Shown here one piece after another: positions 1 through 64,000 of a DNA stretch of 64,000 bases (its first letter is position 1; every line of letters starts with the position of its first letter). A program made the translations under genes and the position numbers. Source of the stretch: Adineta vaga (taxonomy: Eukaryota > Animalia > Rotifera); contig CP075492.1 in assembly GCA_021613535.1 (NCBI GenBank), positions 6,882,001 through 6,946,000 of the forward strand. Direction: 5' to 3'. Under the pieces are notes generated by a model. The model made no database searches and was not told the DNA's origin. It saw only the letters and a list, made by a program, of their open reading frames with translations.

Positions 1-1579
1 TTTGAATGCATGTAATGAAAATTTCAATCCATGTCAAAATAATGGGCGATGTTTACGAACAGCAAATGGTTACAAGTAAGTTATTAACAATTCAACAAAC
101 GAATAGAATAGTTTTGGGATGGAAATTTTGATTTAGATGCGATTGTCCTATGGATTTCGACGGAATTAATTGCACAGAGCGTATCAATAAATGCTCAAAT
201 CATGCCTGTCAATTTGGTGTCTGTATTAATGATGATCATGGATATACATGCAAATGTGATGTTGGTTTTACTGGAAAATATTGTGAAATTGCTCCTCAAC
301 TTAAATCATCAGAATTACTTGTAAATCAAAGTAGCATTTCACCACTGAAATGTACATCAGATATCTGTTCGAATAATGGCAACTGCTATGAAGAATCGAT
401 TGATACTCTTCGTTGTCGTTGCTTCGCAGGTTATACTGGTGATCGATGTAAAATGTTCAAGAGTGTTCATTCAAAAACAAATGATTCTTTCATACAATTG
501 CCCAAACCAAATGTACATCCACGTTTAAATGTAACAATTGTGTTTAGTACAATGGAAAATAGTGGCATATTAGTTTATTTTGGTCATTTGGGACATTTTG
601 TTGCAGAATTGTACATGGGACGTATTCGTATTAGTTACGATATTGAAAATTCACCTGGATCAGTTATATTTAGTTATGATGCTGTCAATGATGGTGAGTA
701 TCACAAAATAAACTTAACTTATAGTGTAGAATAAGAAGAGTTATTTTGTTTTTTTGTAGGAAATATTCATGAACTACAATTGATTAGTATAGGAAGAAAT
801 CTTAGTTTAACAGTCGATCGAGGTTACACAAGACATATTATTAATCGTGGTATTCATACTTATATGAATACTAGCGATATACGTGCTTTATATATCGGTG
901 GTGTACCAAATGAATTGATTGATAGAGCACTTCAACTATGGCATATTCGTGAAGCAACTTCGTTTCAAGGTAATTTGTCTTCACATGTTTATCCTTCAAT
1001 ACAGAAGCATACATCTTTAATCATGTATAGTTTACGTTTATTATCCTTTATTTAAGGTTGTATTCATGCACTTTATGTAAATAATGATCCAATCAACTTT
1101 GCTAATGTTGATTATCGTCATAGAATCTTACCTGGTTGTGAAATAAATGAACAAAATAAATTGCCATGTACAACATCAACTTGTCAACATGGACAATGTC
1201 TTCTCGATGGTTTAACTTATAAATGTCGATGTTACAATGGTTTTAGTGGATCCACATGTAGTGAAGGTAAGTTGTGATATCAATCATCATATTGTATTGA
1301 GTTATTCTCATTAAAGCATCAACTGTACCTCGTTCATGTGGGTTAAATATCGAAACTGGATATTACATCGATCCAACAACGAAATGTTCGAGTGTGAAAC
1401 GATTACGTATGACTAAATGCATTGGGAAATGTTCATCTTCTAATGCTACAATAGCATCATGTTGTACACCAGTTGAATCGAAACGTCGATACTTTCGAAT
1501 GAAATGTGCAAGTGGTTTTACTTATAGACAATCGCTTGACTTTTTTCGACAATGTAAATGTTCCACAACTGTTTGCTAA
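1..1579 (+). CDS. slit: Slit homolog, 3' part (EGF repeats, laminin-G domain, EGF, C-terminal cystine knot); 5' end lies outside the window
   Basis: Spliced exons <1-75, 137-693, 760-969, 1057-1266, 1317-1579 with GT-AG introns. EGF motifs (CKCDVGFTGKYCE, CRCFAGYTGDRC), LamG (FVAELYMGRIRISYD, LYIGGVP..SFQGCI) and a CT knot (CIGKC..CCTP..CKC). This is the domain order of Slit. Confidence 0.88.
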
Positions 1580-4937: not shown

Positions 4938-6109
4938 TTATTGATGAATTATTGAAGGTATAAGAAATGTTGTCATTTCATAGAGCATCTTTGGAAACCA
5001 ATGAATACCAATTATTTCATTTGACATCTTTGCTTTTCCAAACCAATTATACCACCATCGCATAGGTGCCAATGCTGCATGAGCAATATAATGATTATTA
5101 ATTGTTGCATAACATGAAGCAGCAATATTATTAACAAGAATAGTACCTTCCTGTGTTAATGGAGCCATATATCCTTGTTTAACAATATCAATCACATTAG
5201 AAACAGTTTCACTGAGTAATACACCATTGTTATTCATAACAAAGATAGTCATACCAGCACGAATATTCTTAGCCATGATATAATCATATGTACCAGTAAG
5301 AAGAAGATGAGATGATGTTAAAGATAATTGTTGACCAGAAACTGTCGTTACTTGTTTGAAGAGAGCTATCAAAAAACGAAATATATAAAATGTACTTAAA
5401 GGAAAAAGATTACCGAATTGTGTAGGTTGATAATCCAACATAGTTAATATAGGAGTAGAAACAATCTGTTTTGTTTTATCATTATAAGCTAGAATTACAT
5501 CATTTGATTGTAATTCATTCATTTGTTTTTGTTGTCCATTTACTAATGTAACAAGTGAATCGGCAGCAAAACAACGTTGTCCAGAAAATAAACCATCTAA
5601 ACAGAGTAGAATTCGATTCACATACAAAACTCAACAATATCAAAATATCACAAACTTCGAAGAGAACATTTCGTATTGTTTCTAGCTGGACAACAATTTT
5701 CAGCTAAGGATGACATTTCTTTTAATGCTGCTCTACCAATCTAGATAAACAAATAAATAGTTCTACGAAAATTTCTATAATCTATCTACCTCTGCAGCTA
5801 CACATTCACCTAATTCTTCTTTTGCACATCTAATCACATCAACAGCAACATCACAGATCATTTTTACATCTAAATTAACAATTCCTATTTCATTTCTATT
5901 TACACTATTTGACTAACCATTTATCGCTGCACCATACAATCCCGATGTTAAATAACGTAGACATTCAACAATTTGTTTCGGATTGTCGCTGAGTGGACAA
6001 TTAGCATGTACAACTATTGTCCATACACTAATAAGAATTGTTAATTTGAATATTATCTAAATGTACGTATGAAATGATTGAAATGATCACCTATTCATTT
6101 CGTTACCAT
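4938..6109 (-). CDS. Hedgehog-related secreted protein: signal peptide, Cys-rich N-terminal domain and Hog (Hint plus sterol-recognition-like) domain
   Basis: Spliced model: ATG-only exon 6107-6109, then MIIFKLTILISVWTIVVHA-NCPLSDNP...CCPARNNTKCSLR-NGLFSGQR|CFAADSLV...MLD...LTSSHLL...GYMAPLTQEGTILVNNIAASCYA...HAALAPMRW...GIHWFPKML. One intron (5366-5413) lies inside the Hint domain. Confidence 0.88.
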
Positions 6110-13673: not shown

Positions 13674-15032
13674 ATGTCACAAGATGTAATGCCGATCGCC
13701 CAAACTTTTGAATTTCCATGTGGATTAAAAGTATCCAATAGGATAGTTAAAGCTGCAATGGAAGAGTCTCTTGGCAGCGGTGATAATCAGCCGAATGAAT
13801 ATATTTATCGTCTCTACGAACGTTGGGCCAAAGGTTCATATGGTCTTCTTTTAACTGGCAATGTCCAAATCGATGAACGTTTTCCTGGTCTTCTAACAGA
13901 TTTAATGATACCAAGCAAAGAGAAGATTGATTTAGACAGATGGAAACGTTATGCCAATGCTTGTCAAAGTCATGGCACACCAACGATTGTTCAAATTAAT
14001 CATGCTGGCCGTCAATCACCAATGGGCAAACGATCTTTCCGACAACCTCCTATTGCACCTAGTCCAATAAAAATGTCGATGGGAGATGGACTTTTTGCTC
14101 GAACATTACAACGTTTCGTTTCGCCTATACCAGAAGAAATGACACAAGCACAGATCAATGACGTAGTACAAAAATTTGCTGATACAGCTGAATTAATGGC
14201 AAAAGCGGGTTTTGCTGGTGTTGAAATTCATGGTAGTCATGGTTATTTAGTTAGTAGTTTTCTATCGCCAAAAACCAATCGACGAACAGATAATTATGGT
14301 GCTACACCTAAAGATCGTATGAAGTTTTTATTTCAAATTATCGATGCTATACGAGCAGTTGTTCCAAAAAGTTTTGCTGTCGGTGTTAAATTAAATTCAT
14401 CTGATTTTAGTACAGGTGGATTAACTGAAGATGAAGCTCATGATCAAATTCGATGGATTAATGAACATGGAAAGATTGATTTTATTGAAATATCTGGTGG
14501 AACATATGAAGCACCAGCGATGGCTGGACATGAATTTGCACCTAAATTAGAACGTACTCGAAAAAGAGAAGCTTATTTTCTTGAATTCGCTGCTAAAGTT
14601 CGCAATACAACGACTATTCCATTGATCGTTACAGGTGGATTTCGTACTCGAAAAGGAATGAATGAAGCAATTCATTCGAATGCATGCGATTTTGTTGGTG
14701 TTGGTCGTCCAACTTGTCTTCAATTTAATCTACCAGAAATCTTACTCAATAAAACTATTGCTGATGAACATGCACGAGCTATTGAATATGAAATTCGGGG
14801 AATACGTCTATTTAATTTAATACCAATTGCAACTATTGGATCAGGTATCGCAACAATATGGCACAATTGGCAAATGCATCGTGTAGCAATTGAAAATCGC
14901 GAACCCGATCCGACTCTTACTGTCCATGGCAAACTATTCAGTAGTTTTCTTCAATTTTTAAAGAAATCTATGCCAACAATTCTATTGATATTTGGAATTA
15001 TATTTATTGCGATTTTGATTCAACGAAATTAG
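13674..15032 (+). CDS. NADH:flavin oxidoreductase / Old Yellow Enzyme family, intronless, C-terminal TM tail
   Basis: NRIVKAAMEE, QINHAGRQ, GFAGVEIHGSHGYLVSSFLSPKTNRRTD.YG, VKLNS.DF, IEISGGTYE, TGGFRT. Confidence 0.93.
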   Translation: MSQDVMPIAQTFEFPCGLKVSNRIVKAAMEESLGSGDNQPNEYIYRLYERWAKGSYGLLLTGNVQIDERFPGLLTDLMIPSKEKIDLDRWKRYANACQSHGTPTIVQINHAGRQSPMGKRSFRQPPIAPSPIKMSMGDGLFARTLQRFVSPIPEEMTQAQINDVVQKFADTAELMAKAGFAGVEIHGSHGYLVSSFLSPKTNRRTDNYGATPKDRMKFLFQIIDAIRAVVPKSFAVGVKLNSSDFSTGGLTEDEAHDQIRWINEHGKIDFIEISGGTYEAPAMAGHEFAPKLERTRKREAYFLEFAAKVRNTTTIPLIVTGGFRTRKGMNEAIHSNACDFVGVGRPTCLQFNLPEILLNKTIADEHARAIEYEIRGIRLFNLIPIATIGSGIATIWHNWQMHRVAIENREPDPTLTVHGKLFSSFLQFLKKSMPTILLIFGIIFIAILIQRN

Positions 15033-23830: not shown

Positions 23831-25054
23831 ATGAATGGTTCAAGAACGAGGATGTCGATAGAAGAAACACATGATAATATTTCTAAAGATCATAAGAATA
23901 TTTATTGGCGATTACTTTTTCTTAATCTAGTTATCTTATGGTCATATCATTCATTACTATCTGCACAGAATTATTATATGAAATATTTTCCGATGAATCA
24001 TTTAGAATTTTGGGGAACAGTCTTAGCTGGAAGTATGTTATTTTTTTGTCATATAATTCAATTATTTGATTTCTATAAATTTGGTTTTACAAAACGAATG
24101 ATACCTGGTTTTATTGGATATATTATCGTTGGATTATTAGTTATGTCTTGGAAGAATCCAATTATTTTATTAATTGCTTTTGCTACTGTTGGCGGTTTGA
24201 ATACTTTAACTGAATCTCCAGTCTATGCAATTGGTGGATTATTTCAAACTGGATCATTTTCACAAGCTATTCAAGTAGGCAATGCTATTGCTGGTTTTTT
24301 AAATATTTGTGTAAATACAATTATACGTTTGATTGTCTTACTTGTTCATAGCCATATTGATCATGATCAATTATCATTCTATTTATTTATGAGTGTTGGA
24401 ATTCTGTTAAGTTTTCTTGCTATTTATGTTTATTATCAATTAATACACATACCATCAATACAAATTCGAATTCAACAACAAATGATGGCATTTAAACAAG
24501 CAAAATATGGCAATGTAACGGAATTACATTTGATTGAAAATGAAATTTCCTATTGGGAATTAATTAAAATTTTAAAATCTCATTTATTCGTACAATTTTA
24601 TACTTTATTTATTACTTTATTATTATGGCCAGGTATTCCATGTAATGTATTAACAAATGGTTGGTTTAAATATGACGGACATCTTTGGTGGTGCTCACCA
24701 TTTGTTATTGGAACATTTAATTTCGGTGATTTACTTGGTCGAATAAGTGCAATTAAGATTCATCAATATTTTTCGGAAAAAATCTGTTTCTGTGCTTCAA
24801 TTCTACGAACATCTTTTATTCTTATCATCTTCTTTCGTCATAGTATTAATAATATTCTTCTTCTGATCTTAATCACTTTATTAGGAATGACAAATGGTCT
24901 TCTAGCAACTGTTTCATTTATGTATCGTCCATCGGCTATTATTGGAGTGAATAATCGTGAAAAAGCAGCATATTTAATGACTGCAGCATTATATTTAGGA
25001 ATTGCTAGTGGATCAATTGTTGCTGCTAGCTTAGCATTAACACATTTACTTTAA
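23831..25054 (+). CDS. Equilibrative nucleoside transporter (SLC29/ENT), intronless
   Basis: About 11 TMs, QAIQVGNAIAG, TLLLWPG, FNFGDLLGR, LGMTNGLLAT, REKAAYLM...LGIASGS. Confidence 0.9.
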   Translation: MNGSRTRMSIEETHDNISKDHKNIYWRLLFLNLVILWSYHSLLSAQNYYMKYFPMNHLEFWGTVLAGSMLFFCHIIQLFDFYKFGFTKRMIPGFIGYIIVGLLVMSWKNPIILLIAFATVGGLNTLTESPVYAIGGLFQTGSFSQAIQVGNAIAGFLNICVNTIIRLIVLLVHSHIDHDQLSFYLFMSVGILLSFLAIYVYYQLIHIPSIQIRIQQQMMAFKQAKYGNVTELHLIENEISYWELIKILKSHLFVQFYTLFITLLLWPGIPCNVLTNGWFKYDGHLWWCSPFVIGTFNFGDLLGRISAIKIHQYFSEKICFCASILRTSFILIIFFRHSINNILLLILITLLGMTNGLLATVSFMYRPSAIIGVNNREKAAYLMTAALYLGIASGSIVAASLALTHLL

Positions 25055-26059
25055 TAAATTTATTTTTGTCTCGATTATTCTATAGAGATTTTACGATGTA
25101 AGCTCAAAGGACAAACAGTAAAATACGTTTTTTGTTTCATTTTTTATTATTGAGCATTAGTCATTTTTAAACGTAAAGAGAACTAAAATAAGCATTCATC
25201 CATTCGAAGTAATAGAAAAGAAAAAGAACGCACTCATCACATCTTGTGTGGCGCCAATTTTTGGTCTCCTTGAGGGAAGAAAACAGAATAAAAACGTTTT
25301 TTTTCTCTTTCGAGTAACATATAAAAAAAGAAAGAAAAAAAATCTCTTTTATACTAATGGAATACTTTAAATTACCAGCTTCGATTTGATAAGGTAAGGA
25401 TATAAGATAGGATAGTTATCAATCATTTTCTTCATATTGAAACTGTTTGGAAGCATTGATGTTTGTGTCAAAGGACATAATAAAATGTATAGTACGATAT
25501 TCGAGTGAATCTTTGACTCATTTTGAAATGATGTGATTAATCAAAGCAGATTAAACTTTATCTATACGATTGTTTAGTCTTCAGACGAATAAGTCAGCAC
25601 TTAAACATACGATTCTGAAACGAAAATAACACGCATGCGTAACTTTGAATGGTTGACTGTAGAAAAAACAAAGAGGACGTGTTTATTGTTGATGTCAAAT
25701 TAAATGCAGAGCTTGTCATATAAATCATGTTATATTGCAAAAATATTCGTTTGTGTAGTTAGAATTATCCTTTTCTTATTATATGATCAAATTCAAATAT
25801 TTTTGGTATTTATTCTCTACATACCTGTCAGTTTCAATCACTCGTCACATGAGAAAGAGAAAAAGCGTTTACGTATACTGTTGAAATTAAGATTAAGTAA
25901 TCGATTTTCGCTATTATCGATTGTGATATTTATTTAACCTTTAACAATCGCGAATACAGTGAGCATACAAAAGTATCCATGTATTATTGTACCTTTTACT
26001 ATTACTAAAATAATATATCATCATTGTATGTTATAGTTGACTTTTAATTTCCGAACAAA

Positions 26060-27865
26060 ATGGCAACTTCGAATGTTAACAATTTAAAATATGATATTGA
26101 ACATGAACAAACATCCACCGAGGATGAATATTTGGATCAGCAAAGGAAACTTCGTGAAGATATTGAATGCATATTACAAACTCAAGATTTATTATGTCAA
26201 AAAGTGAAATCATTAATTTCACAAACATCTGCCGATATTCTATTCGATTTAATCCAAGAACTTTATGAATTCAAAATCAAATCTGAAGAAATCGAAAAAG
26301 CTGCAATTACAATTCAACAACAATTACAACATCTGATTAATGATGATACACAAGATTTAAAACAACAATTAATGGCAATATCAAATGGATACAATACCAA
26401 ATTAAATGATCGTTCAGAAAACGATATTGAACATTTAAAAAAAGACATTGAACAATTAAAATCATTCTTCGAAGAAATTAAACAACACAGTCGAAGAAAA
26501 CAATCACAAGAACAAAATCATCATCATCAACATCGAACAGTTACAACTGCTACATCACACTTGATTGGTATATCATCAGATAAACGTAGTCATCTATTAT
26601 CTCCTACGAGTTCTTCGAAAGAAGATGTTAAACCATCAGTGGATAATTTTACATCATTATCTCGTTTACTTGTTAGACAAGTCAGCCCATCGGTGATCGA
26701 TTTAAATGAAAAAGACTTTGATTTCGATACAGAACGTGTAGAAGAAAAAGAAAAAGTAATAGAAATCAACAGTTCTGATCCGACACCAAAAATCAATCAT
26801 AAAATTCGTCTTTCTAATAATATTGTCAAATGGTTACGTGGTCCATTGAAATTCGCTGTCGATGGTACATTCTATGTGGTTGATTTATTTGCACGAGGTA
26901 CACATATAAGTGATACTGTTATTAACGCTGTCAAACGAGGAGCTGCTAAACAAAAACAATTTTCATCAATAGAACAATCGACAGATGAATTATTTCGATC
27001 ACCATTTATTGAAATTACATCAGATTGGAAATATATTGGTGCGAATGAAGATCAAGGTTATAGTAGTGATTCATTTTGGATACGAGATCCTCAAAATCGA
27101 CGACTTCTCGTTAAAATACAAGATCATGCTCTATGTGCTGTCAACGAATGGTTAGCTTATGTATTAGGAAAACTACTCGGTTTACCTATCAATGAAGTAC
27201 AAATTGCAATTTATGAAACGAATCTTGTCACTTTACATAAAGATGTTGCTGAAGAAAATGAACAAACACTTACATTTATGGATTTACCAAAACAAATCCA
27301 AGAAACTGTTATTACTGATCCCTTATTAGAAGGAATGGATTTATTTGATCATATTATACAAAATGTTGATCGAAATCCACGAAATATTTTAATTACTTTA
27401 CCAAAAACAGCTTCGATTGAAGATGAAAATGCGAAATTAAAAATACATCTCATCGATCATTCGCCTTGCTTTGGCATGGGTAAACTCAATGGTCTCAGTG
27501 TTTTCGCAAATAAATTTCATAGTCAACATCTTGCAGTCGTCAAATTTGATCCAATAGGTCAAGCGAAAAAATTTGAACAATATCTTTGCAAACTACCAGT
27601 AGAAGATCGTGTATTGATAAGAAAAACATTGAATCGTTTTGCAGCTGTTACGGATGAACAAATTGATTGGTTAATAACTGAAGTACAAGATTTATTATCA
27701 GCTAGTCAATACAATCGTATACATAGTGTCTTATATCGACAACGTGATATTGCAAGACGCTATTCAATACAATGGGGTCTTCAAATTCGATCTCCAAGTG
27801 AAAAATCACATGGAAATGATCAGTTGAATAGCAATGAAAAAGATCTTGAGGATACGCATCTCTAA
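26060..27865 (+). CDS. Coiled-coil N-terminus plus atypical kinase of the HipA/CtkA (PI3K/PI4K-like fold) type, intronless
   Basis: LLVK (K at 27113), VNEWLAYVLGKLLGLP, FDHIIQNVDRNPRNILI (D at 27368), HLIDHSPCF (D at 27455). The first ~150 aa are heptad-rich in E/Q/L/K. Confidence 0.75.
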   Translation: MATSNVNNLKYDIEHEQTSTEDEYLDQQRKLREDIECILQTQDLLCQKVKSLISQTSADILFDLIQELYEFKIKSEEIEKAAITIQQQLQHLINDDTQDLKQQLMAISNGYNTKLNDRSENDIEHLKKDIEQLKSFFEEIKQHSRRKQSQEQNHHHQHRTVTTATSHLIGISSDKRSHLLSPTSSSKEDVKPSVDNFTSLSRLLVRQVSPSVIDLNEKDFDFDTERVEEKEKVIEINSSDPTPKINHKIRLSNNIVKWLRGPLKFAVDGTFYVVDLFARGTHISDTVINAVKRGAAKQKQFSSIEQSTDELFRSPFIEITSDWKYIGANEDQGYSSDSFWIRDPQNRRLLVKIQDHALCAVNEWLAYVLGKLLGLPINEVQIAIYETNLVTLHKDVAEENEQTLTFMDLPKQIQETVITDPLLEGMDLFDHIIQNVDRNPRNILITLPKTASIEDENAKLKIHLIDHSPCFGMGKLNGLSVFANKFHSQHLAVVKFDPIGQAKKFEQYLCKLPVEDRVLIRKTLNRFAAVTDEQIDWLITEVQDLLSASQYNRIHSVLYRQRDIARRYSIQWGLQIRSPSEKSHGNDQLNSNEKDLEDTHL

Positions 27866-28804
27866 GTAAAGAAAGAACATGTATATATAGTTTACCGATT
27901 TTTGTTAATCTAATCAAGCGTTATGTACATAAAAGTTTTTAATATTTGTTATTTCCATTATTTAAGGAGATGGTCTTGTACTAGGCCTTGAATTTTCAAA
28001 CAAATAAATTCTTTTTTTCTATCATTTGACCCTTCAACAATAATCTAAAGGACAGTACAAAACAGACGATTGCGAAGATATAATATATACATTTGTCGAG
28101 GGTAAGTACAATGATGAATTAGAGTAAACAAGAGCTTTGATTGATACATCGTTGACGTTTCTGGTAAAAACTCATAACATCATATTTTTAAAATCTAACA
28201 ATTCTATTCAAGCATTGATTTTGATCGGCAATATATTCATTAGTAACGATTACAAAGCTTCACTCGTTTGCAACTAGTTTTCAGTATGCTAAACAATGAT
28301 AAGTATGTATGTGACTCAAGTACTGATACATAACTGTGAGTCTAGTTGTTTCAGTTAAGTGTTTTCTTGTGTGAAGACAATTTCTCTTTTAGCACATTCG
28401 TACGCTTTAATCTTTTATTTAAAAGAAAGATTGTTGCTTAGGCAGACAAATGTTGCCCCTCATCCGCACAATTTCGTCATCGCAACATGTTTACGATCGC
28501 AAACGATCTCATACCTCTTGCAGTAAATGTAATAAGTAATCTGTCTTCATACAATGTAAAACGACATATTTCCTTTGCCCTCACTTATAACATAAAATAA
28601 AGATAAAGGAACAAAAGTATTGTTCATATACCACAACAACAACAACAACAAATTTATGAAGAACTGACCAATATTCTTGTGACTTAGAGAAAACAATGAT
28701 GCAAAATGGAAATGAAACTGAAATGAAAAGTGTAAAGATAATGTAGACGTCGTGTTTCACAAGATACTGAAGTGTTATTATTTATTACAACTTACCAAGA
28801 TATC

Positions 28805-30715
28805 ATGGCTACATCAAATATTACGGACGATATTAATTTACAAAATTTAAAAGTTGAAGAGTCAACAACAATAAAGTTCGAGGAAGCAACTGCAGAAAAA
28901 TCTCAAGCTGTGACTGAGCTACCATCGGTAGAAGAAGTCGAAAAAGCTCTGAAAGAATGGACAAAACAACCATTGAAAGCTAATCAACGTAAACCTGATG
29001 AAAAGATATTACCTAAACTTGATACAAGAAATGTATTGATTACTAGTGCCTTACCTTATGTGAACAATGTACCACATTTAGGTAATCTGATCGGATCATT
29101 ATTAAGTGCTGATGTCTTTGCACGTTATTGTCGGTTGAGAAATTATAATACTTTGTACATTTGTGGTACAGATGAATATGGTACAGCAACCGAAATGAAG
29201 GCATTTAAAGAAGATCGTACACCGCAACAAATTTGCGATGAATATTATGAAAAACATACAAAGATTTACGAATGGTTTCAATTAGATTTCGATTTCTTCG
29301 GACGTACATCAACATCAAAACAAACTGAAATTTCTCAAGATATTTTCTGGAAATTATATAAACGAAATCTCGTCACGAAAGATAAAGTTAAACAATTATA
29401 TTGTGAAACTTGTCAACGCTTTCTTGCTGATCGTTTCGTAGCTGGCACTTGTCCAGATCCTATTTGCAAGTATGATGATGCTCGTGGTGATCAATGTGAT
29501 AATTGCCAAAAATTAATCAATGCTGTCGAATTGATTTCACCGAAATGCCAAGTTTGTCGTAGTACGCCACTAGTCAAAACATCGGATCATTTATTTCTCG
29601 ACTTGCCTAAGTTAGCACCTGAGGTTCAAAAATGGTTTGACAAATCAATTAATGATGGACATTGGACAAATACAGCTAGTCATATTACGGACGCTTGGCT
29701 TAATGGTGGTCTTAAATCACGATGTATCACACGAGATCTGAAATGGGGCACACCAGTACCTTTAGAAGGTTATACTGATAAAGTTTTTTACGTATGGTTT
29801 GATGCACCAATTGGTTATCTTTCAATAACAGCAAATTACACGGATGAATGGGAAAAATGGTGGAAACAACCGGATAAAGTCGAATTATTTCAATTTATGG
29901 CTAAGGATAATGTTCCATTTCATTCCATTATCTTTCCTGCTTGTCTGCTCGGTTCACAAGACAATTATACTATTGTGAATCATCTTTCAGGCATTGATTA
30001 TCTTAATTATGAAGGTGCAAAATTCTCGAAAAGTCGAGATATTGGTGTGTTTGGTGATGATGCTCAAAATACAGGAATTGCAGCAGATATTTGGAGATTT
30101 TATTTGTTATACAATCGACCAGAAAGTCAAGATAGTAATTTCTTATGGAATAATTTAATGGCTAACAATAACTCACAATTAATAAACAATCTTGGCAATT
30201 TTATTCATCGAGTTATTCTTTTTTGTGAACAGTATTTCAATGGTAGAATCGGTGATGCATCAAAATTAGAAACACAACTTGATCAATTATTTGTTGCACA
30301 AATAACCTATGAATTAAATGCTTATGTAAAAGCTATGGAACGAACGAAATTACGTGATGGTCTTAATTGTGTCTTACGCATGTCTAGTTATGGCAATCAA
30401 TATTGGCAGACGAAAGAACCATGGGCAAAACGCAAAGGTTCTGAGACTGATCGTATCGATGCTGAAATAACTATTACTTTGGCACTAAATCTTGTTTATT
30501 TATTGTCACTGGTTCTTCAACCATACATGCCATCTACATCGAATGAAATTCGACAACAATTGAATATTGAGCAAACTATTTATGCTTTGGAAAATTCTTT
30601 TCGTTGTTATTTACCAATTGGTCATACAATTGGACAAGCTCGACCATTGTTTAAACCTGTGGAAAAAGCCCAGGCTGATGCTTTGCGTGAACGTTTTGCC
30701 GGTCAAAAGACATAG
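28805..30715 (+). CDS. MARS1: Methionyl-tRNA synthetase, cytosolic eukaryotic type, intronless, lacking N-terminal GST-like and C-terminal WHEP appendages
   Basis: ITSALPYVNNVPHLGN, CGTDEYG, four Zn-knuckle Cys pairs, RDLKWG.PVP, FYVWFDAPIGY, KFSKS, NNLGNF, PYMP. Confidence 0.95.
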   Translation: MATSNITDDINLQNLKVEESTTIKFEEATAEKSQAVTELPSVEEVEKALKEWTKQPLKANQRKPDEKILPKLDTRNVLITSALPYVNNVPHLGNLIGSLLSADVFARYCRLRNYNTLYICGTDEYGTATEMKAFKEDRTPQQICDEYYEKHTKIYEWFQLDFDFFGRTSTSKQTEISQDIFWKLYKRNLVTKDKVKQLYCETCQRFLADRFVAGTCPDPICKYDDARGDQCDNCQKLINAVELISPKCQVCRSTPLVKTSDHLFLDLPKLAPEVQKWFDKSINDGHWTNTASHITDAWLNGGLKSRCITRDLKWGTPVPLEGYTDKVFYVWFDAPIGYLSITANYTDEWEKWWKQPDKVELFQFMAKDNVPFHSIIFPACLLGSQDNYTIVNHLSGIDYLNYEGAKFSKSRDIGVFGDDAQNTGIAADIWRFYLLYNRPESQDSNFLWNNLMANNNSQLINNLGNFIHRVILFCEQYFNGRIGDASKLETQLDQLFVAQITYELNAYVKAMERTKLRDGLNCVLRMSSYGNQYWQTKEPWAKRKGSETDRIDAEITITLALNLVYLLSLVLQPYMPSTSNEIRQQLNIEQTIYALENSFRCYLPIGHTIGQARPLFKPVEKAQADALRERFAGQKT

Positions 30716-31317
30716 AGAATTAAATAAAGTCTTTGCTGCGATGACGAAAATAAGTGGATAGGTAGCAATGCCAGTCTACCAGAGCAACAATTTCTCTTAA
30801 AACAAAAGGAAATAAATAATCATAACTCATTTCTATATTAATGAAAAGATTTCTCTCTGCAAGAAAAAAGGAGATTAGGATACTTTTTTTTAAGAAGAAA
30901 GAATGACATAGAAAAGACGTATCTTTATCTATTTGTGCAAACTATTGCCGTAAGTCAAGATTTTTTTATAAGTTAATTATCTTTGTTCGTCTATTTGTCT
31001 GCTTCGCATTTCTTCGTCGTATACAACTGAAATCGAACGTTTGTCATCATCGTCATCAACAAACTCGATGTAGAGAGAAAACGATCTTATTATCAAGTCG
31101 ATTGTTTCTTTAAGTGTTCTAACTATGACGATCGATAGATCGATCGATTGACTGAATAGTCTAAAAGGATAACACGTATTGAAACAGATTGATTTCATTT
31201 TCACGCTTGCCAACATCGAACAATGACAGTAAATATGAAGAAAAGAGTGTCTCTAAATTGTATGTTATTAATAAAGAAGAAAACTGTCACATCTTTACGG
31301 ATACATTTATCTTACCC

Positions 31318-34300
31318 ATGGAGCATAGAACGTTTCGACGATCGATCGATGTTTCTGAATCAAAAATGATACGACGACCTGGCAATATGAATAAACGATC
31401 ATCATTTCACGATACCGTATATGAATAATAAATCTTGACTTTCTTGCAAATAAACTTTCTTTTTATTTAGGTTCTTCGTACTCAACAATTAGTACGTGTG
31501 TTGAAGACGATGAATACTGTTGGTGAAATTCGACGAGAAGATGTTTTTGGTTTGAATCTAGATAATAAACAACGTCATCGACGTTCAGGGACAATGGTAA
31601 AATAAAAAACAAAAGATTTCTTTTTAGTAATCATCAAATTAATAGGGATTTAGTACTCTAATGTGATAGAAATAATCAAATAAAGACTTGAAATATTCTT
31701 CTTTTCTACTATACATTCCTCTTGATGAGAAATCACGCTGTTATAGAAGTATGTGTTGCCAATTTATCAGTTCTTTGAATTGTCAAAAAGATGATTGTGA
31801 TTTGTTCTTGGATGAAAGAATAAGATGATTATAAGAGATAAGCAAAAGAGAAAGCGATTCATAATAAAATGCGTCGACCATCACGATTGTCTTCATTTGC
31901 TTCAGCTGAAACTCGAATTCATTTTCGCATTGATCGAGAACGTCTTTCCGTAATTAACCATCTTGACTTGAATGAAAAAGGAAAAATTCTTCATTTAGGC
32001 TGCATCTGAAGAAAGTAGTGAAACATCTAGTGTTTCACCTGTCTTAGATTCACAAGGACTTGTACCAGGAACAACAGCTAGTTCACGACGTATTGGTCAA
32101 CGATTTATTATTCTTCACTATTCACCTTTCAAAGCAGTGTAAGTTCATTAGCTGATCATTCATACAACATATTTTGATTTTGATTATCTCAGATGGGATT
32201 GGGTTGTTATTTTACTCGTCTTATATACTGGTATTATAACACCATATACAATTTCATTCCTATCTGAAGAAGATCAAAAACGAGCAAATTTAAATGCACA
32301 AGCAGTTACAAGAGAATTCAATCGAGAACGAACAAGTAATCATGTATTAGTTTTAATCGATGTCTTGGTAGATACAGTCTTTATTCTCGATATATTAATC
32401 AGTTTTCGGTCAGTTATTTTGTTTATGATTCTGTACGATCAATTCATCTTTCTATTTTTGTATTTTATTTAAGAACAACATTTGTTTTAAAAGAAACTAA
32501 TGAAGTTATAACAAATCCAATTTTAATTGCGAGACATTTTGTTATTGATTCATGGAGACGTTTCGGTGCCGATATACTCGGTGCTTTACCATGGGATATT
32601 CTTTTCTATGGTAATGGAAGCCATTTGGTAGGAAAAAAAACAAGTAGAAAAACTAATTTAAATAGTGTTTATTTTCTTATTGTAGACAATGCGACTAGCT
32701 AATTGTTTTAAATTAGCACGTCTTTTACGATTGATTGAATTTATTCGAAATTTTCAGAATACAGAATATCGATCAGCTGTTTTAATCTTTCTCATGCTTC
32801 TATTTGCTATAGCTGCACATTGGCTTGCTTGTATTTTTCATTTTATTGCGATTCTTGAAAGACCAAATCTACCGGTAAAATATTCTTGGTTAGATCATCT
32901 TGCACAAAAATATCAAATGCCCTATCGTGCAAATGATACATTGAGTGGACCAGATGTGAAATCGAAATATTTAACTGCCCTATTCTTTGCAATGACATCA
33001 TTAACATCCGTTGGATTTGGAAATGTTGCAGCAAATACGAATGGTGAAAAGCTTTTCTCGATTCTTTCAATGTTAGCTGGATCATTTCTAAGTGCATCAA
33101 TTCTTGGAAGTGTGACAACAATTATTATAAAATTATATCAAGGTGCAGAAGAATTAAAAGAAATGAAACAAAGTATTGATGATTTTATTAAACATCATCG
33201 TATTAATAAACAATTAGCTAAACGAATGGAAGATTCCTTTGAACATGAATGGAAAAATACAAAAGGAATTGATATGAATAGTATATTGAAAACATTTCCC
33301 GAATGTATTCAAGCAGATATATGTTTACATTTAAATCGTGAGTTATTAAATGATTGTCCAGTTTTTGAAGATGCAAGTGAAGTAACACTACGAGCATTAG
33401 CTTTACTTTTTAAATCAACACATGTTCCACCAAATGATGCACTTATTCATCAAGGTGATATTATTAATTCAATTTATTTTATTCGTGGTGGTCAAGTAGA
33501 AATCTTACAAGACAATGAATTACTTGTTATACTTGGTCGAAATGATACGTTTGGAGAAAATCCTTGTCGTACGATGAGTCCAGAAAAATCAAAATGTGTA
33601 GTACGAGGTTTAACTTATTGTACATTGAATAAAATTCATCGAGATGATTTACTTACTGTTTTACGACTTTATCCAGATTTTGCGAAATCATTTATCGAAC
33701 GATTTCGTCTAACATTTGATCTTCATCATTGTGAATTACATGAATCGAAACCATTCTATAAATTAGATGCAGATATTCAAATGTTAATCAAAGAACGTAA
33801 TCCAAAATTACAGAAAGATCGACGATTGAGTGTTTTAAGTCAACGAGAAGATGAAGCGAATCGTATAGCAAATTTACGTTCTTATCGTGGTCTTTGTAGA
33901 AGTACTGAACTTAGTATTGCACGATCGATTAGTACAACAATTGAATTATCTCCAGAACAAGCACAAATAACCGCCGAACATTTTGATTTTTGTCGAGACG
34001 GAAAACAAACGACACTATCAGTACCATCATCTCATAGTTAGTATCCGTTAAAGAAAAATAATCGTCTATAAATATTGTCGTATGATTTGTTTTTAGCTGT
34101 TTATTCAACACATCTTACAGTACCAAAAATAACAACAGCTGTTTTTCCAGAGAACTCATCGAAGTAAATCTTTTTTCAGTTTAGATGACGACAAAAGATT
34201 TTCTTTCTCTTTTGATAGTTCAATGCAACAATATGGAAATGGTTCGATACGAAATATGGTGGACGTAGATGCAGAATTAGGACTTCTACAGAAGTAATAT

Positions 34301-37175: not shown

Positions 37176-37875
37176 TATCTGCGCTGATACAATTAATTCA
37201 ATTTCAAATTACAGAAAAAGAATCGACAAGGTGAATAATGTTGAGAAAAGACAGCGTCAACATATATAAAGAAAAACTACGAACGTATCGAACCGTATGC
37301 GATTTATGTGGTGTAAAAAAGACATTTTTGTGTTCAAGTTGCACAAATAAAATGTCGAATATGACCTCGATGATCTCTTTAGTACGTCTGACTCACATCA
37401 ATTTCCACATTCTTGTTAAACATAATCATTTCTGTTACTTCGACGTACATACGAATAAAGATCTTTTTTTATAACACACTGATAGTGTACGCCTTCATAT
37501 CTCGATTTAACTTATATTTAATAATAAGAATCATTAAGGTGCAATTATAGGTGTGAAGATGAGATGACTTCATTGAAAGTACATTATATCGTATTCATGT
37601 GTCTAGCATAATATGACCTGTAATCAAACATGTTTTGTTCTTGAAGAGAAAAGTTAAACGTATGTTCATTCTTGATTAACAAACTTTTATTATTTAATTT
37701 ATTTCAAATGATACTAAAAATATTTCTTATCATATTTTCTGATAAATTGGTCCATTTTAAACTACACATGTGATATTTCTCATAGAGTATATCGGAATAT
37801 TTTTGATATAAGATAGTTCGTCTCAATAAGACAACAAGAGAAGATTTTCAGAGACGGTTACGTGTTGTACTCAAT

Positions 37876-38523
37876 ATGACTCTATCAAACATATTTTCGA
37901 GTCTTTTCATTGGTTCAATATTGATTTTAGCAAAAGCTAATGAAGAAATTTTTCATCAACGAGTTGATTGTCCTGACACAAGTTCATGTATGTCTCAATG
38001 GGGCTATTGTGGCACTGGAGAAGCCTATTGTGGAACTGGTTGTCAGAGTGGTCCATGTTATGGAGGATCAGGATCAGGTGGCGGTGATTCGAATACATAT
38101 CACGGAGAAGGAACACATTATGATGGTAAATATTCTATCGTAGAAAATATCTGATTTGGATCCTTACTATTACGTAGTTGCTGTTGGTTATACTGCTTGT
38201 GGTACACTTCATTCTCGTTTTGATATGGTTGCAGCATTGAATGCTCCTCAATTTGATCCTCATACACCAAATGGTAATCCAAATAAAAATACTCTTTGTA
38301 ACAAACGAATACGTGTTCAAGGACCGTCTGGGACTGTTGATGTTGCTGTTGTTGATCGATGTCCCATATGCAAAACTGTATGCGATGAGAGAAATTATTA
38401 TTGTTGTACAAAAACTTACATTTATCTATTTGTTAGGGTGATGTTGATCTCAATGAAGCAGCATTTGCTAAAATAGGCAGTACTTCAGCTGGAAGAATTC
38501 GTATTAGTTGGCATTGGCTTTAG
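37876..38523 (+). CDS. Secreted hevein/CBM18 chitin-binding domain plus Gly/Ser linker plus RlpA-like DPBB (barwin/expansin-like) domain
   Basis: Signal peptide; CMSQWGYCGTGEAYCGTGCQSGPC; GEGTHYD..ACG..VAALN..GNPNKNTLCNKRIRV..VVDRCPIC..GDVDL..AF..GRIRISW. Introns 38126-38177 and 38378-38436. Confidence 0.9.
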
Positions 38524-60536: not shown

Positions 60537-60764
60537 TTAATTAAACGATGGTAACATTGGACCGGATTGTTGATGATGTATCGTTGAATTTTCTGGATTA
60601 AAATAATAATTATCGTACGCTGTTGAATTATACGTTGTTTTCTGATGATTTCCATTGGTGTAATAATTCGAATGTTTCATTAAATAATTCGTCGACATAT
60701 CATATGAATCTATTGTTGCAGATGATGAACCATAACCAACTTGAGAATGAAATGGTACAGCCAT

Positions 60765-60798
<34 letters not shown>

Positions 60799-62078
60799 GG
60801 ATGAATTGATGGCTGATAATAACTATGATGAGGATGATGAGGATGGTAAGAACGAAGAGTTAGGTCATCTTTTTCAGTCGTTGATGTTGCTAATGGCGAA
60901 TTATTTAGATTCATTCCACATCCATTCGTATATGATGTACGATTTTTTCCATCTTTTTTATCTTTCATACGACGATTTTGAAACCAAATCTAAATTTAAA
61001 AATGAAATTTAGCTTAACGTTTACAATAAGATGAATTCTCTTACCTTAATCTATAAGTTACCAATGAAAAGAATAAAATAAAATTGAAATAAAAAAGTAA
61101 TTTAATAATTTTTCCACATTTTCTTACCTGTCGTTCAGTCAAACAAAGTGTTTGTGCAAGTTCAATGCGTCGTGGTCGATTTAAATATTTATTATATAAA
61201 AATTCTTTTTCAAGTTCAACTAATTGAGCACTTGTATAAGCTGTTCGAGCTCGTTTTGATGGTGTTGAATTGCTTTTATCTATAGAGAAAAGAAACAAAC
61301 TATACAATCGATGATAAGCTTCAACATTCTATGTTCTTTAAGAAAGAGACAGCATGACATTCGATGACTAATGATACACTCATTTATCATTGTCTTTCAA
61401 ACTTCTACATACGTCTCTTCTAGCAAATATACAAATGCAAAACATACATATCAACAAGAATATACAATGGAAACTTCTTCTTCTTCTTCTGTATTTTTCA
61501 AATAAACGAACTTTTAGGTATACTTGCAAAGATTCATATATTTTCTCTTTTCTATTGTATTGTAAATAACAAAATCATTGATCCTTGAAGTTTCCTATTT
61601 TTTACTACGAACCAATGAGTTTCGACTACTCTTTCGTCTGACGATAAAGAAAGAGCATAGAACTTGTGTTTTTTGAGAGAATCTAATATATGTTCTACTT
61701 TATTCATGCGAGTTCTCGTATCTGCTAACGAAAGATCTTATTACCAGAAGTAGATGATGTCGAAGAAGTTGACGTTGTATTGAGATTTTTCGCATTGCTT
61801 TTCAGTTTTTTACTTCCATGTTTTTTTTCACTCATCCATGGGTAGATTTCTTTATGATTGGACAAATTTGTTGAATTAAATTCATTTGATGGTGATGACG
61901 AATTCTTTTCTGTTGTTGTTGTTGTTGTTGTTGACGATGATGATATTGAATTTGTATTATTCATAATTAGATTCATATTTGTATAAGAATTTGATGGCAT
62001 ATTCATATAATAATCTGTTTGTGATTGATGAGTAGTCGGATCCCAAGATATTGAATGATTATGTTCAGTTTTAACCAT
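60537..62078 (-). CDS. Hox3: Hox3 (paralogy group 3) homeobox protein
   Basis: Hexapeptide EIYPWM and homeodomain [20 protein letters not shown]...TERQ|IK|[13 protein letters not shown]. The homeobox is split by introns 61127-61051 and 61044-60990. An acceptor near 62112 suggests a further upstream exon. Confidence 0.88.
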
Positions 62079-64000
62079 ATCAGTTTCGATATCGAATGGA
62101 ATGTATCGTGTCTATAAAAGTCGAAATGATTTTCTCTCTATTCTGTCAAAAAGAAATATATATATTGTAATATGGATGAGTTATTTCTGTTTTTTTCTTC
62201 TCTTTCTCGTTTCTTATTCGATAAAAAAACAATATTTCTCTCCGCCAATAAAATCATAGAGAACAGGAAGAGAAAGAAAAGTGTCATATCATTGAAATAT
62301 GTGTTAACAAATCAAACATCAAACAGATTTTTAGACAAAACCCTGAAGCAACCTCTAAGAAAGAGAAAGAGAAGAAACTTTTTCTTTTTTTTCCTTCATT
62401 CATGATTGACGATGAGGGTGTTTCTAACTTGCCAATTTTGATTTATAGTATAGGAGAGCAGGTACTTTTTCTACTCTATGTAGGTATAATTACCTTATTT
62501 CGTTTTTCTCTCTCGTCCAACCATACGCTACGCATGATCAAAATGCATTTATTATCGATGACAGAAGTTGTTATTACCTACTGCGTGTATATGCAAGAGA
62601 GAGAAAGCAAACGAAAAATGTATACGCCTCTGTTTTAAAACATGTAAAAGTATGTTTAGTCATTGGTAATGAATTTCGTTTAATGAAGAATGACGAGAGA
62701 GGGAAAAAAAGTGGAAGTGATGCGACGAATGAAAAGAACAAGGTAAAAGACATTATTCATTTGTCAGAAAGAAGATGGATAAATGAGACGAAACGACTGT
62801 CACAATCATATCATTTTCAGTGAAGTATAAGTGTTGAAGAATTATATTAGATGATAAGAAGTATTCGGCCTCTTTAAGAAGGTCGTTAAACTGTTAAAAG
62901 GTCGATGGTTTTCTACTGACATAGGTCTTGTAAGTAATTTCAAGTTTCATTTGCTTGAATCTTTTACTAATATGAGTGTCTCAATTAAAAAGAGACATCA
63001 GATTCATCTGTGTTCAATGAACCGTTCAATGTTGTGAAATCATTTTCTTCTTTCGGATCACATCTCTTTGACTCCTATTCTTTCTTCTGACAATCTCAAG
63101 CGGTGTGATATTGATGTAACACAATTAAAGAAGGAATTCGCCGCTCAATCGATCACTACTCTCATCCCGAAAAAGAATACAAAGAGAAAAATAGCTACTA
63201 GGCAATTTTCTTGATGATCGCAACGCAGTCAACATCAGATAATTTTCTTCTAAATAAGTTCTAGTGAAGCAAACAAGAAAATGAAAAATGATCTTTTAAT
63301 GAGGCAAACATATCATGATTTCGAATGACAACAAAAGTGATTATCATTGACAATTGAAATAATTCAGTAGCAGCATGTATCATCCATCTTATTGAACATA
63401 AGAACAATTAAAAGAACATTTTGAGCAAAAGCAAATCATCAGAAAAGATAAAAGTCTTAAAAGGTGATCTCAAGAGAAGCACCATCAATCAAATTGACTT
63501 CTATACAATATTAACAAACTTCAAAAAGATAAATGAATATTTATATAGTAACATTCCTATGTATCAGGAAACTAAATCTTCGAAATACTCATTCATGAAT
63601 GTCCTCATAAAAAAAAACACAACTTCAAAAAAGACAAAATACAAATATATTCTACACTTCGACATCAGAGACAATACACGTGTGGTTATCTTGATTAAAA
63701 TATACATTATAATCAGTCTATTGATTTTTATTATGTATGATATTCAACACCTTTGCCGAGTGTGTTTTTCACCTGACTATTTATACGATCAATCGTTAAT
63801 GTTGAAATCAATTCATTCAGAATGTCATCCACGATATTTCATCGGAAAACATTCTGTTCGTCAAAATGCAACATAAGCTGAAAAGTTTGGAAAAAAGATC
63901 ATTAATAATTGTCTGATGTCAAAAGACTGATTGGATTTTCGATGTTCCTATAGAAAGAAAGAAACTAGCTGTCAGGAAAAGGAAATTATCATGTATATTA

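What the first reader, a model, noticed from the sequence alone, without database searches (positions are those of the whole stretch)
26060..30715. HipA-like kinase next to a stripped-down intronless MetRS: candidate kinase / resistant-target module in an animal genome
Seen: two co-oriented intronless CDSs about 940 bp apart in an intron-rich neighbourhood. One is an atypical kinase (VK, NEWLAY.LG..LGLP, FD.IIQN.DRN.RN, IDH) and the other is a MetRS lacking its usual metazoan appendages. Established: bacterial HipA-family toxins phosphorylate aminoacyl-tRNA synthetases (HipA targets GltX, HipT targets TrpS) to arrest translation and induce dormancy. Inference: the kinase could inhibit a housekeeping synthetase during stress, dormancy or infection, with the neighbouring MetRS serving as substrate, decoy or resistant copy, or the pair could be a selfish toxin-antidote element. 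This is speculative, since adjacency alone could be chance.
Basis: partly seen in the sequence, partly recalled or inferred. Interest (0 to 1): 0.8.

Follow-up and report, generated by a model that had tools for sequence, protein, structure and literature searches.

The report
Rotifer HipA-like kinase beside MetRS retrocopy
In a bdelloid rotifer, a widespread kinase of likely microbial origin sits next to a young, fast-changing second copy of the methionine-tRNA ligase gene, likely copied back from its messenger RNA, and the two are most likely neighbours by chance rather than a toxin-antidote pair.

Summary
Both genes are real; the window is an Adineta vaga chromosome. The kinase (26060-27865) belongs to an apparently undescribed bdelloid family: 95 hits, with 23 of 23 organism-named ones Adineta or Rotaria. 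Its catalytic residues are conserved. Its predicted fold is closest to Helicobacter CtkA (Z 18.0), ahead of PI4K-II (13.4) and HipA (12.3). It is transcribed and has a 5'-UTR intron.

The MetRS (28805-30715) is a second copy of A. vaga I4U23_013831. It carries 19 of the 23 bases of the rotifer spliced leader just before its ATG, lacks the parent's inferred introns, and lies between diverged inverted repeats: a processed retrocopy. It arose after the split from A. ricciae, whereas the kinase orthologue predates that split. None of 5 other kinase sites with long flanks has a MetRS. Missing GST/WHEP domains are normal for Adineta and Rotaria, and the KMSKS serines are kept.

The kinase/resistant-target module is therefore not supported. 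The retrocopy is still odd: 45 versus 11 amino-acid changes, clustered around the anticodon-binding helices, with the methionine/ATP site intact and likely low expression.

The parts
25350..25393 (+). 5'-UTR exon of the kinase gene (start not determined; at least 44 nt)
   Evidence: RNA contig joint 25391->26035, GT..AG with cut +2, side 44, run X9 only
25394..26036 (+). 643-nt spliceosomal intron in the kinase 5' UTR
   Evidence: GT and AG ends read
26060..27865 (+). CDS of a 601-aa CtkA/HipA_2-like atypical kinase of a bdelloid-wide family
   Evidence: RNA-type contigs over 26234-28018
26141..26510 (+). Predicted coiled-coil N-terminal region (about aa 28-150); the B-box-like Cys/His motif of relatives is lost in this gene and its A. 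ricciae orthologue
   Evidence: alignment; motif in 33 of 62 full-length members, absent in P0001 and P0002; B-box Pfam in 8 of 90; coiled coil inferred from sequence, not folded
27002..27775 (+). Kinase domain (about aa 315-572): Gly/Ser-rich loop G333-S338, K352 (27113), E363 (27146), D437 (27368), N442 (27383), D466 (27455)
   Evidence: model pLDDT 84.9, pTM 0.84; CtkA Z 18.0, rmsd 3.5, 229 aligned
28018..28024 (+). Likely poly(A) site of the kinase mRNA
   Evidence: X12 and X17 contigs stop at 28018; the X12 loose end runs into As; weak, one loose end
28406..28487 (+). Left arm of a diverged inverted repeat; multi-copy in the genome; family not identified
   Evidence: 76 nt at 71%, E 0.001; local score 62, reached by 1 of 246 random pairs; DNA contig depth 217 and 294 against about 30
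28782..28800 (+). Genomic relic of the rotifer spliced leader: positions 4-22 of the 23-nt leader, 4 nt before the ATG, no GT donor behind it
   Evidence: leader sequence from PMC3795323 Table 1; multi-copy depth over 28698-28811
28805..30715 (+). CDS of a 636-aa processed retrocopy of cytosolic MetRS (parent I4U23_013831 / UJR09596.1, same chromosome)
29195..29272 (+). Cluster of derived changes, aa 131-156 (9 of 45)
30113..30235 (+). Cluster of derived changes, aa 437-477 (12 of 45), in the helix leading into the anticodon-binding N/R residues (aligns to E. coli 363-403)
30734..30816 (-). Right arm of the inverted repeat, starting 18 nt after the stop codon

Best explanation
Two genes of different ages are neighbours, most likely by chance: an old kinase shared across bdelloid rotifers, and a younger second MetRS gene that likely arose when a trans-spliced, intron-free MetRS mRNA was reverse-transcribed and inserted about 0.9 kb downstream of it. 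The kinase is likely a microbe-derived CtkA/HipA_2-type Ser/Thr protein kinase that bdelloids domesticated by adding a B-box-like/coiled-coil N-terminus and a UTR intron. It probably self-associates through the coiled coil and acts in stress or defence signalling; its substrate is not shown. The MetRS copy likely still makes Met-AMP, since its HIGH, KMSKS, zinc and methionine-pocket motifs are intact. It likely binds tRNA more weakly than the parent, having lost the Lys-rich extension and changed conserved residues around the anticodon helices. It would persist as a low-level accessory enzyme under relaxed but not absent purifying selection. The flanking inverted repeats likely mark the mobile element that carried or received the cDNA.
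For: Shown. Parent on the same 20,354,754-nt contig. Copy is sister to the parent, support 99/99, branch 0.12 against 0.022, with the first 24 residues identical. 19 consecutive bases match the published rotifer leader just before the ATG. Parent-type DNA contigs show insertion-type joints at 29007, 29328 and 30348, an acceptor-like loose end at 29882 and pieces ending at 29610, whereas the parent-type RNA contig is gap-free over 28931-30664. The kinase has an A. ricciae orthologue (SH-aLRT 100) on an 801-kb contig; the ricciae MetRS records lie on contigs of other lengths. 0 of 5 paralogous kinase sites with 8-10 kb downstream hold a MetRS. Derived changes avoid conserved sites (10 of 45 in the 252 of 578 sites at least 95% conserved, p about 0.002), pair pN/pS is about 0.38, and a neutral ORF would stay open with P 0.011-0.0007. 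Kinase: closest folds and weak sequence relatives are CtkA/HipA_2-type; no non-bdelloid animal is named among the hits.
Against: The metagenome sites are paralogues (54-62% identical), not orthologues. The parent's inserted letters were not shown, so its introns are inferred. pN/pS comes from subtracting minimal amino-acid-changing steps from total contig differences, not from a codon alignment. One DNA run (X1) shows single-base deletions at 30308 and 30427 that would break the frame; X6 and X9 contigs across both places have no gap, and two other X1 deletions fall on X6 SNP sites, so an artefact is likely but not proven. Several derived residues (275, 412, 447, 458 and perhaps 196, 548, 592) read as ancestral in some copy-type contigs. 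PI3_PI4 Pfam matches 45 of 90 members, so lipid substrate is not excluded. No donor tree was built, so horizontal origin rests on distribution.
Confidence: 0.7

Rival explanations
1. First reader's module: the kinase phosphorylates and inhibits housekeeping MetRS, and the adjacent copy is a resistant enzyme, a decoy or the antidote of a selfish pair.
For: Broadly HipA-like kinase. HipA and HipT phosphorylate GltX and TrpS (bioRxiv 10.1101/2021.04.14.439929, passages). A second, fast-evolving MetRS does exist and both genes appear in the same RNA-type runs. Human MetRS is regulated by kinases (PMC4179492, abstract and passages).
Against: The kinase is older than the copy and is carried without it at 5 of 5 assessable other sites. 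A. vaga has two more paralogues, I4U23_004333 and I4U23_015357, neither numbered next to the parent I4U23_013831. KFSKS serines 408 and 410 are kept; that HipA's target serine lies in this loop is recalled. The fold is nearer CtkA than HipA (Z 18.0 against 12.3) or HipT (11.0). The copy's contigs have a few percent of the parent's depth, a weak hint against an antidote role.
Confidence: 0.05
2. The retrocopy is being neofunctionalised, independently of the kinase, into a MetRS with relaxed tRNA discrimination. It would load methionine onto non-cognate tRNAs, as stress-phosphorylated human MetRS does, and so add oxidant-scavenging Met to proteins.
For: 18 of 45 derived changes fall in aa 437-545 (8.5 expected) against 2 in the methionine-pocket region 301-403 (8.0 expected). 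The best 41-codon window holds 12 (p 0.0014), or 10 after dropping 7 possibly polymorphic sites (p 0.012). D450N, K454N, E458Q, L460I and N468H hit sites 99-100% conserved, yet the base-reading triad N465/R469/W540 (E. coli N391/R395/W461) is kept. Precedent: PMC4179492.
Against: Overall pN/pS is below 1 and no branch-site test could be run. Clustering also fits selective loss of constraint on tRNA binding. Expression looks low. No induction data were available.
Confidence: 0.1
3. The retrocopy is a transcribed pseudogene in slow decay; the open frame and the spared active site reflect an early period of selection or luck.
For: About 5-fold faster protein change, loss of 44 N-terminal residues, 10 changes at near-invariant sites, low contig depth, possible frameshifts in run X1, many amino-acid-changing differences among copy-type contigs.
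Against: ORF intact over 636 codons, with neutral survival P at most 0.011 before counting indels. Both deletions are in frame. Changes avoid conserved sites (p about 0.002).
Confidence: 0.15
4. On substrate only: the kinase is a lipid (phosphoinositide) kinase like PI4K-II or Legionella MavQ, not a protein kinase.
For: PI4KIIa Z 13.4 and MavQ Z 12.2; PI3_PI4 Pfam in 45 of 90 members; 5 of 22 weak relatives pass the PI3_PI4 cut-off.
Against: CtkA stands 4.6 Z units above PI4KIIa. HipA_2 matches more members (63 of 90) and more weak relatives (10 of 22 above cut-off). A conserved Ser-rich Gly loop (S336 84 of 90; S/T338 90 of 90) resembles Hip autophosphorylation sites.
Confidence: 0.15

Closest known systems
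Helicobacter pylori CtkA (PDB 3AKJ) and the HipA_2 (PF20613) HipA-like kinases
   Same: Predicted fold (Z 18.0, rmsd 3.5 A, 229 aligned, 16% identity), K/E/D-x4-N/D motifs, weak profile matches.
   Different: Below the Pfam cut-off for this protein (21.8 against 27 bits); animal, multi-copy, with a B-box-like/coiled-coil N-terminus and a UTR intron; substrate unknown.
E. coli HipA / HipT toxins of hipBA and hipBST modules
   Same: Same superfamily fold (Z 12.3 and 11.0); Ser beside the Gly-rich loop.
   Different: No adjacent HTH antitoxin or HipS-like gene; no HipA N-subdomain match seen; HipA_C matches only 8 of 90 members weakly. Gerdes et al. found no significant eukaryotic homologues.
Spliced-leader-tagged retrogenes of dinoflagellates (PMC5585692, abstract seen)
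   Same: A genomic, 5'-truncated leader in front of an intron-free copy of a housekeeping gene.
   Different: Here in an animal, as a single young copy framed by inverted repeats. I found no report for bdelloids in two searches, and Adineta + retrogene gave nothing relevant.
Penelope pLTR-framed host genes of A. vaga (PMC3846280, parts 1-3 of 5 read)
   Same: A host gene framed by terminal repeats that can be inverted, moved in trans.
   Different: The published NRPS case kept its introns and has a target-site duplication. This cargo is spliced and trans-spliced, no convincing duplication was found, and the arms are not shown to be pLTRs.
Metazoan cytosolic MetRS (MARS1; PDB 5GL7)
   Same: HIGH, KFSKS, zinc knuckles, methionine pocket and the N/R/W anticodon triad are intact.
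   Different: No GST or WHEP (as in the parent); Lys-rich extension lost; 45 derived changes.

Membership tests
HipA-family toxin-antitoxin kinases (Gerdes et al. criteria) | [quoted passage not shown] | tested here: met
   G333, K352, E363, D437, N442, D466 conserved in 89-90 of 90; criteria read
HipA-family toxin-antitoxin kinases (Gerdes et al. criteria) | Adjacent antitoxin gene, generally DNA-binding | tested here: not met
   Neighbours are a membrane protein ORF and MetRS; neighbours at other sites vary
HipA-family toxin-antitoxin kinases (Gerdes et al. criteria) | Phosphorylates an aminoacyl-tRNA synthetase and arrests growth | not testable with these tools
   Needs an assay
HipA_2 (PF20613) | Score at or above the curated cut-off of 27 bits | tested here: inconclusive
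   This protein 21.8 bits; relative P0016 30.3 bits; 63 of 90 match at E<=0.01
CtkA-like kinases | Structural nearest neighbour | tested here: met
   Top of Foldseek (E 5.9e-8) and VIA-align (Z 18.0, next 13.7); no sequence-level match
Type II PI4-kinases | Closest fold and Pfam cut-off | tested here: not met
   Z 13.4, below CtkA; 19.9 bits against cut-off 27.1; lipid activity itself untested
Processed retrocopy | Intron-containing parent, intron-free copy | tested here: met
   Insertion-type joints in parent-type DNA contigs; inserted letters not shown, so introns are inferred
Processed retrocopy | mRNA-only 5' tag (spliced leader) in the genome | tested here: met
   19 consecutive bases; no GT donor behind it
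Processed retrocopy | Poly(A) remnant and target-site duplication | tested here: inconclusive
   No A tract after the stop; only short AT-rich 7-8-nt candidates, not in register with the arms
Penelope pLTR-mobilised cargo | Terminal repeats framing the cargo | tested here: met
   Inverted arms
Penelope pLTR-mobilised cargo | Hammerhead ribozyme in the repeats (core box, helix II, then GAAA) | tested here: not met
   By inspection against PMC4209133 (part 1 of 4 and supplement passages) the hairpin lies after, not between, the boxes; no Rfam match at gathering score; decay cannot be excluded
Penelope pLTR-mobilised cargo | Identity with a known A. vaga pLTR | not testable with these tools
   No genome or repeat library; the one supplement held gave no match to four short motifs; the alignment file was not seen
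Cytosolic MetRS | HIGH, KMSKS, zinc cysteines, anticodon N/R/W | tested here: met
Self-resistance synthetase paired with a toxin gene | Conserved linkage with the toxin gene | tested here: not met
   0 of 5 assessable paralogous sites; no second divergent bdelloid MetRS among the best 120 of 7984; orthologous ricciae site seen only through accessions

The most novel reading that the evidence does not exclude
A. vaga has recently built, by retroposing a trans-spliced mRNA, a second MetRS whose anticodon-domain helices are being rewired while the methionine/ATP site is kept. It would be a hard-wired mis-methionylating enzyme that raises the methionine content of proteins as an antioxidant shield in a desiccation- and radiation-resistant animal, possibly co-regulated with a domesticated bacterial-type HipA/CtkA kinase next door.
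Probability: 0.1. Interest if true: 0.85.

Novelty: new variant of a known kind. Interest (0 to 1): 0.45.

Why it matters
First, HipA/CtkA-type kinases are known from bacteria; here is an expressed, expanded, motif-intact family in an animal class, with no paper linking bdelloids and HipA in the library searched. Its substrate is an open and testable question. Second, a genomic spliced-leader relic gives a simple tag for counting true mRNA-derived retrocopies in bdelloids. That is useful because Penelope elements there can also move intron-containing genes, which confounds retrocopy counts. Third, a young paralogue of an essential synthetase with clustered changes in its tRNA-reading domain is a natural experiment in tRNA specificity. 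The striking claim that started the finding, an animal toxin/resistant-target module, is not supported.

Tried and rejected
No whole genome is held, so synteny, parent exon structure and a codon-level dN/dS could not be computed. Sequence searches of the PDB with the kinase, single and profile, found nothing significant. Word-based scans of prokaryote genomes (5 loci) and viral contigs (4 loci) gave only marginal catalytic-loop matches; my own HMM scored them at 13.7-27.2 bits. The viral structure library gave uncharacterised phage kinase domains (best E 3.9e-7), no donor. The Atlas search with the ricciae orthologue gave bacterial clusters, all under 0.9, lead only. Rfam over 27800-31600: 11 weak matches, none at gathering score. 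Hammerhead and SECIS readings of the arms were rejected by inspection; single-strand folding of the arms was not better than shuffles (z -1.24 to 0.36). The leader and arm motifs had no match in 24 fetched loci. No run holding the stretch is on record as RNA; I treated X9, X12, X14 and X17 as RNA because their contigs skip GT..AG introns of neighbouring genes. Contig depth cannot rank genes, so the parent-to-copy depth contrast (107-398 against 3.5-13) is only a hint. Complex prediction was not run: enzyme-substrate pairs are a poor use of it. Literature searches with no relevant hit: bdelloid + HipA (0); bdelloid + tRNA synthetase + horizontal (12, none on this); MetRS residue numbers (0). 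Three papers were not held, so roles of E. coli D376, R380, D384, D449 and D456 are recalled only. Rows dropped: 5 partial kinases from alignment A1 and one more (P0094) from the tree; 3 near-duplicate bdelloid MetRS from the conservation count.


Full report
Source and observation. The window is 30% GC and intron-rich. Both ORFs are as described: 26060-27865 (601 aa) and 28805-30715 (636 aa), co-oriented, 939 bp apart.

The kinase family. A search with residues 280-585 found 95 proteins at E<=0.001 among 1064 candidates. All 23 that carry an organism name are Adineta or Rotaria; the rest are environmental. In 90 aligned members K352, E363, D437, N442 and D466 are present in 89, 90, 89, 89 and 90, the miss being a gap. 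A. vaga has two further paralogues, I4U23_004333 and I4U23_015357. The window gene has a clear A. ricciae orthologue (SH-aLRT 100 in a quick tree of 89 rows).

What the kinase resembles. Pfam gives HipA_2 (21.8 bits, cut-off 27) and PI3_PI4 (19.9, cut-off 27.1). Across the family HipA_2 matches 63 of 90, PI3_PI4 45, a B-box 8 and HipA_C 8 at E<=0.01. The domain model is good (pLDDT 84.9). Its best match is H. pylori CtkA by Foldseek and by VIA-align: Z 18.0, then actin-fragmin kinase 13.7, PI4KIIa 13.4, CotH 12.6, HipA 12.3, HipT 11.0. A profile search of 1.84 billion representatives gave 57 hits, 34 at E<=1e-10, then a drop to weak ones. Of 22 outlying hits scanned, 10 pass the HipA_2 cut-off and 5 the PI3_PI4 cut-off. 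Of 10 looked up, one is named, a Desulfuribacillus HipA-family kinase. Two unnamed proteins, P0270 (E 1e-72) and P0278 (E 2e-24), look non-bdelloid by their Ala/Gly/Pro/Arg-rich make-up (inference) and may point to the donor. Horizontal origin is inferred from distribution; no donor tree was made.

Domestication of the kinase. A B-box-like Cys/His motif heads 33 of 62 full-length members but is lost in this gene and its orthologue. Contigs from four runs in three studies that skip GT..AG introns of neighbouring genes cover the kinase. One of them joins across a 643-nt intron in the 5' UTR, and one ends near 28018 with an A-rich loose end. The gene is thus transcribed on its own and is not intronless.

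The MetRS is a second copy. It is of metazoan cytosolic type. Adineta and Rotaria MetRS all lack GST and WHEP, and Didymodactylos keeps a GST-like part, so that feature is not special here. Cluster look-up revealed A. vaga I4U23_013831 (680 aa) on the same contig. The window copy shares its first 24 residues, lacks 44 residues including a Lys-rich repeat and is its sister in a 16-row tree (99/99; branch 0.12 against 0.022). It therefore arose after the split from A. ricciae. It is not the homoeologue, which would lie on another chromosome (PMC8494291, passages).

It is a processed retrocopy. Bases 28782-28800 equal positions 4-22 of the 23-nt rotifer spliced leader (PMC3795323 Table 1, passage), four bases before the ATG, with no splice donor behind. 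Parent-type DNA contigs show insertion-type joints at 29007, 29328 and 30348, an acceptor-like loose end at 29882 and pieces that stop at 29610, while the parent-type RNA contig runs gap-free over 28931-30664. The inserted letters were not shown, so the introns are inferred.

The flanks. Arms at 28406-28487 and 30734-30816 are inverted, 71% alike over 76 nt. They share a 13-mer found nowhere else in the window (the pattern was picked from the arms), and 1 of 246 random pairs scored as well. The left arm is multi-copy in DNA runs. By eye, both arms and a third copy seen as a loose end keep a GCAA-capped hairpin. Penelope terminal repeats frame host genes in A. vaga (PMC3846280, parts 1-3 of 5), but I found no hammerhead order, no Rfam family and no clear target-site duplication.

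How the copy is evolving. Over codons 43-620 it differs from the parent at 67 residues: 45 derived in the copy, 11 in the parent, 11 unresolved. Total differences in RNA contigs give a rough pair pN/pS of 0.38, range 0.20-0.55 over seven pieces. Only 10 of the 45 hit the 252 sites that are at least 95% conserved (p about 0.002), and a neutral frame would have stayed open with P 0.011-0.0007. HIGH, KFSKS, the zinc cysteines and the methionine pocket are intact, as are N465, R469 and W540, the equivalents of E. coli N391, R395 and W461 (PMC10535265, passages). Changes pile up at aa 131-156 (9) and 437-477 (12; p 0.0014), or 10 and p 0.012 after dropping 7 sites that may be polymorphic. Copy-type RNA contigs have depth 3.5-13 against 107-398 for the parent, a weak hint of low expression. 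Against function: run X1 shows two single-base deletions in the frame, absent from X6 and X9 contigs and probably artefacts.

Testing the module. Sixteen bdelloid-like metagenome loci collapse to six sites, five with 8-10 kb downstream; none holds a MetRS. They are paralogues, so this tests the family and not the orthologue. The ricciae orthologue's record lies on an 801-kb contig and the ricciae MetRS records on others. No second divergent bdelloid MetRS appears among the best 120 of 7984 scored. HipA targets Ser239 of GltX; that it lies in the KMSKS-type loop is recalled, and both serines of that loop are kept here. There is no antitoxin-like neighbour, a criterion of the Hip families. The kinase existed before the copy arrived and exists elsewhere without it.

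Verdict. Most likely (0.70) a chance pair: a domesticated CtkA/HipA_2-like protein kinase and a young MetRS retrocopy under relaxed selection. Separately, a lipid substrate for the kinase 0.15. Leader-tagged retrogenes are known in dinoflagellates (PMC5585692, abstract). I found no report for bdelloids and none on HipA-like kinases in bdelloids. Supplements of the A. vaga genome and HGT papers, which I did not see, may list these genes. Interest 0.45.

Noticed in passing
run X20 on window 28951-30600: A run labelled as another organism holds four short low-depth pieces 98-100% like the retrocopy, but no piece of the parent type is listed; probably cross-contamination, yet the missing parent is odd.
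   Followed up: no
window 60537-62111 (-): Hox-type gene: an exon with a YPWM motif and a later exon ending the homeodomain; class named from memory.
   Followed up: no
window 37807-38476 (+): Cys-rich hevein-like chitin-binding stretch followed by an expansin/DPBB-like stretch; looks like a fungal-type foreign gene; names recalled.
   Followed up: no
window 13674-15032 (+): Single-ORF NADH:flavin oxidoreductase (PF00724, E 4e-45); candidate foreign gene.
   Followed up: partly
window 23831-25054 (+): Single-ORF 407-aa membrane protein with no Pfam match at E<=0.5; resembles an equilibrative nucleoside transporter from memory; covered by RNA-type contigs.
   Followed up: partly
window 4938-5630 (-) and 132-1055 (+): Hedgehog-type Hint domain, and an EGF plus laminin-G stretch like the end of Slit; names recalled.
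   Followed up: no
L008 7295-10786 (also L007, L009): Two kinase paralogues in tandem, each followed by a similar membrane-protein ORF on the opposite strand.
   Followed up: no
P0100 (Rotaria sordida): 1048-aa record joining a RhoGEF-like part to MetRS; likely a gene-prediction fusion.
   Followed up: no
window 33479 / 26308: All four RNA-type runs list a joint between the channel gene and the kinase N-terminus with 4 letters between; probably a short-repeat artefact.
   Followed up: no
L019 7840-9374: Bacterial HipA-like kinase followed by a gene resembling DUF3037 (family name recalled), the usual context of the weak bacterial relatives.
   Followed up: no
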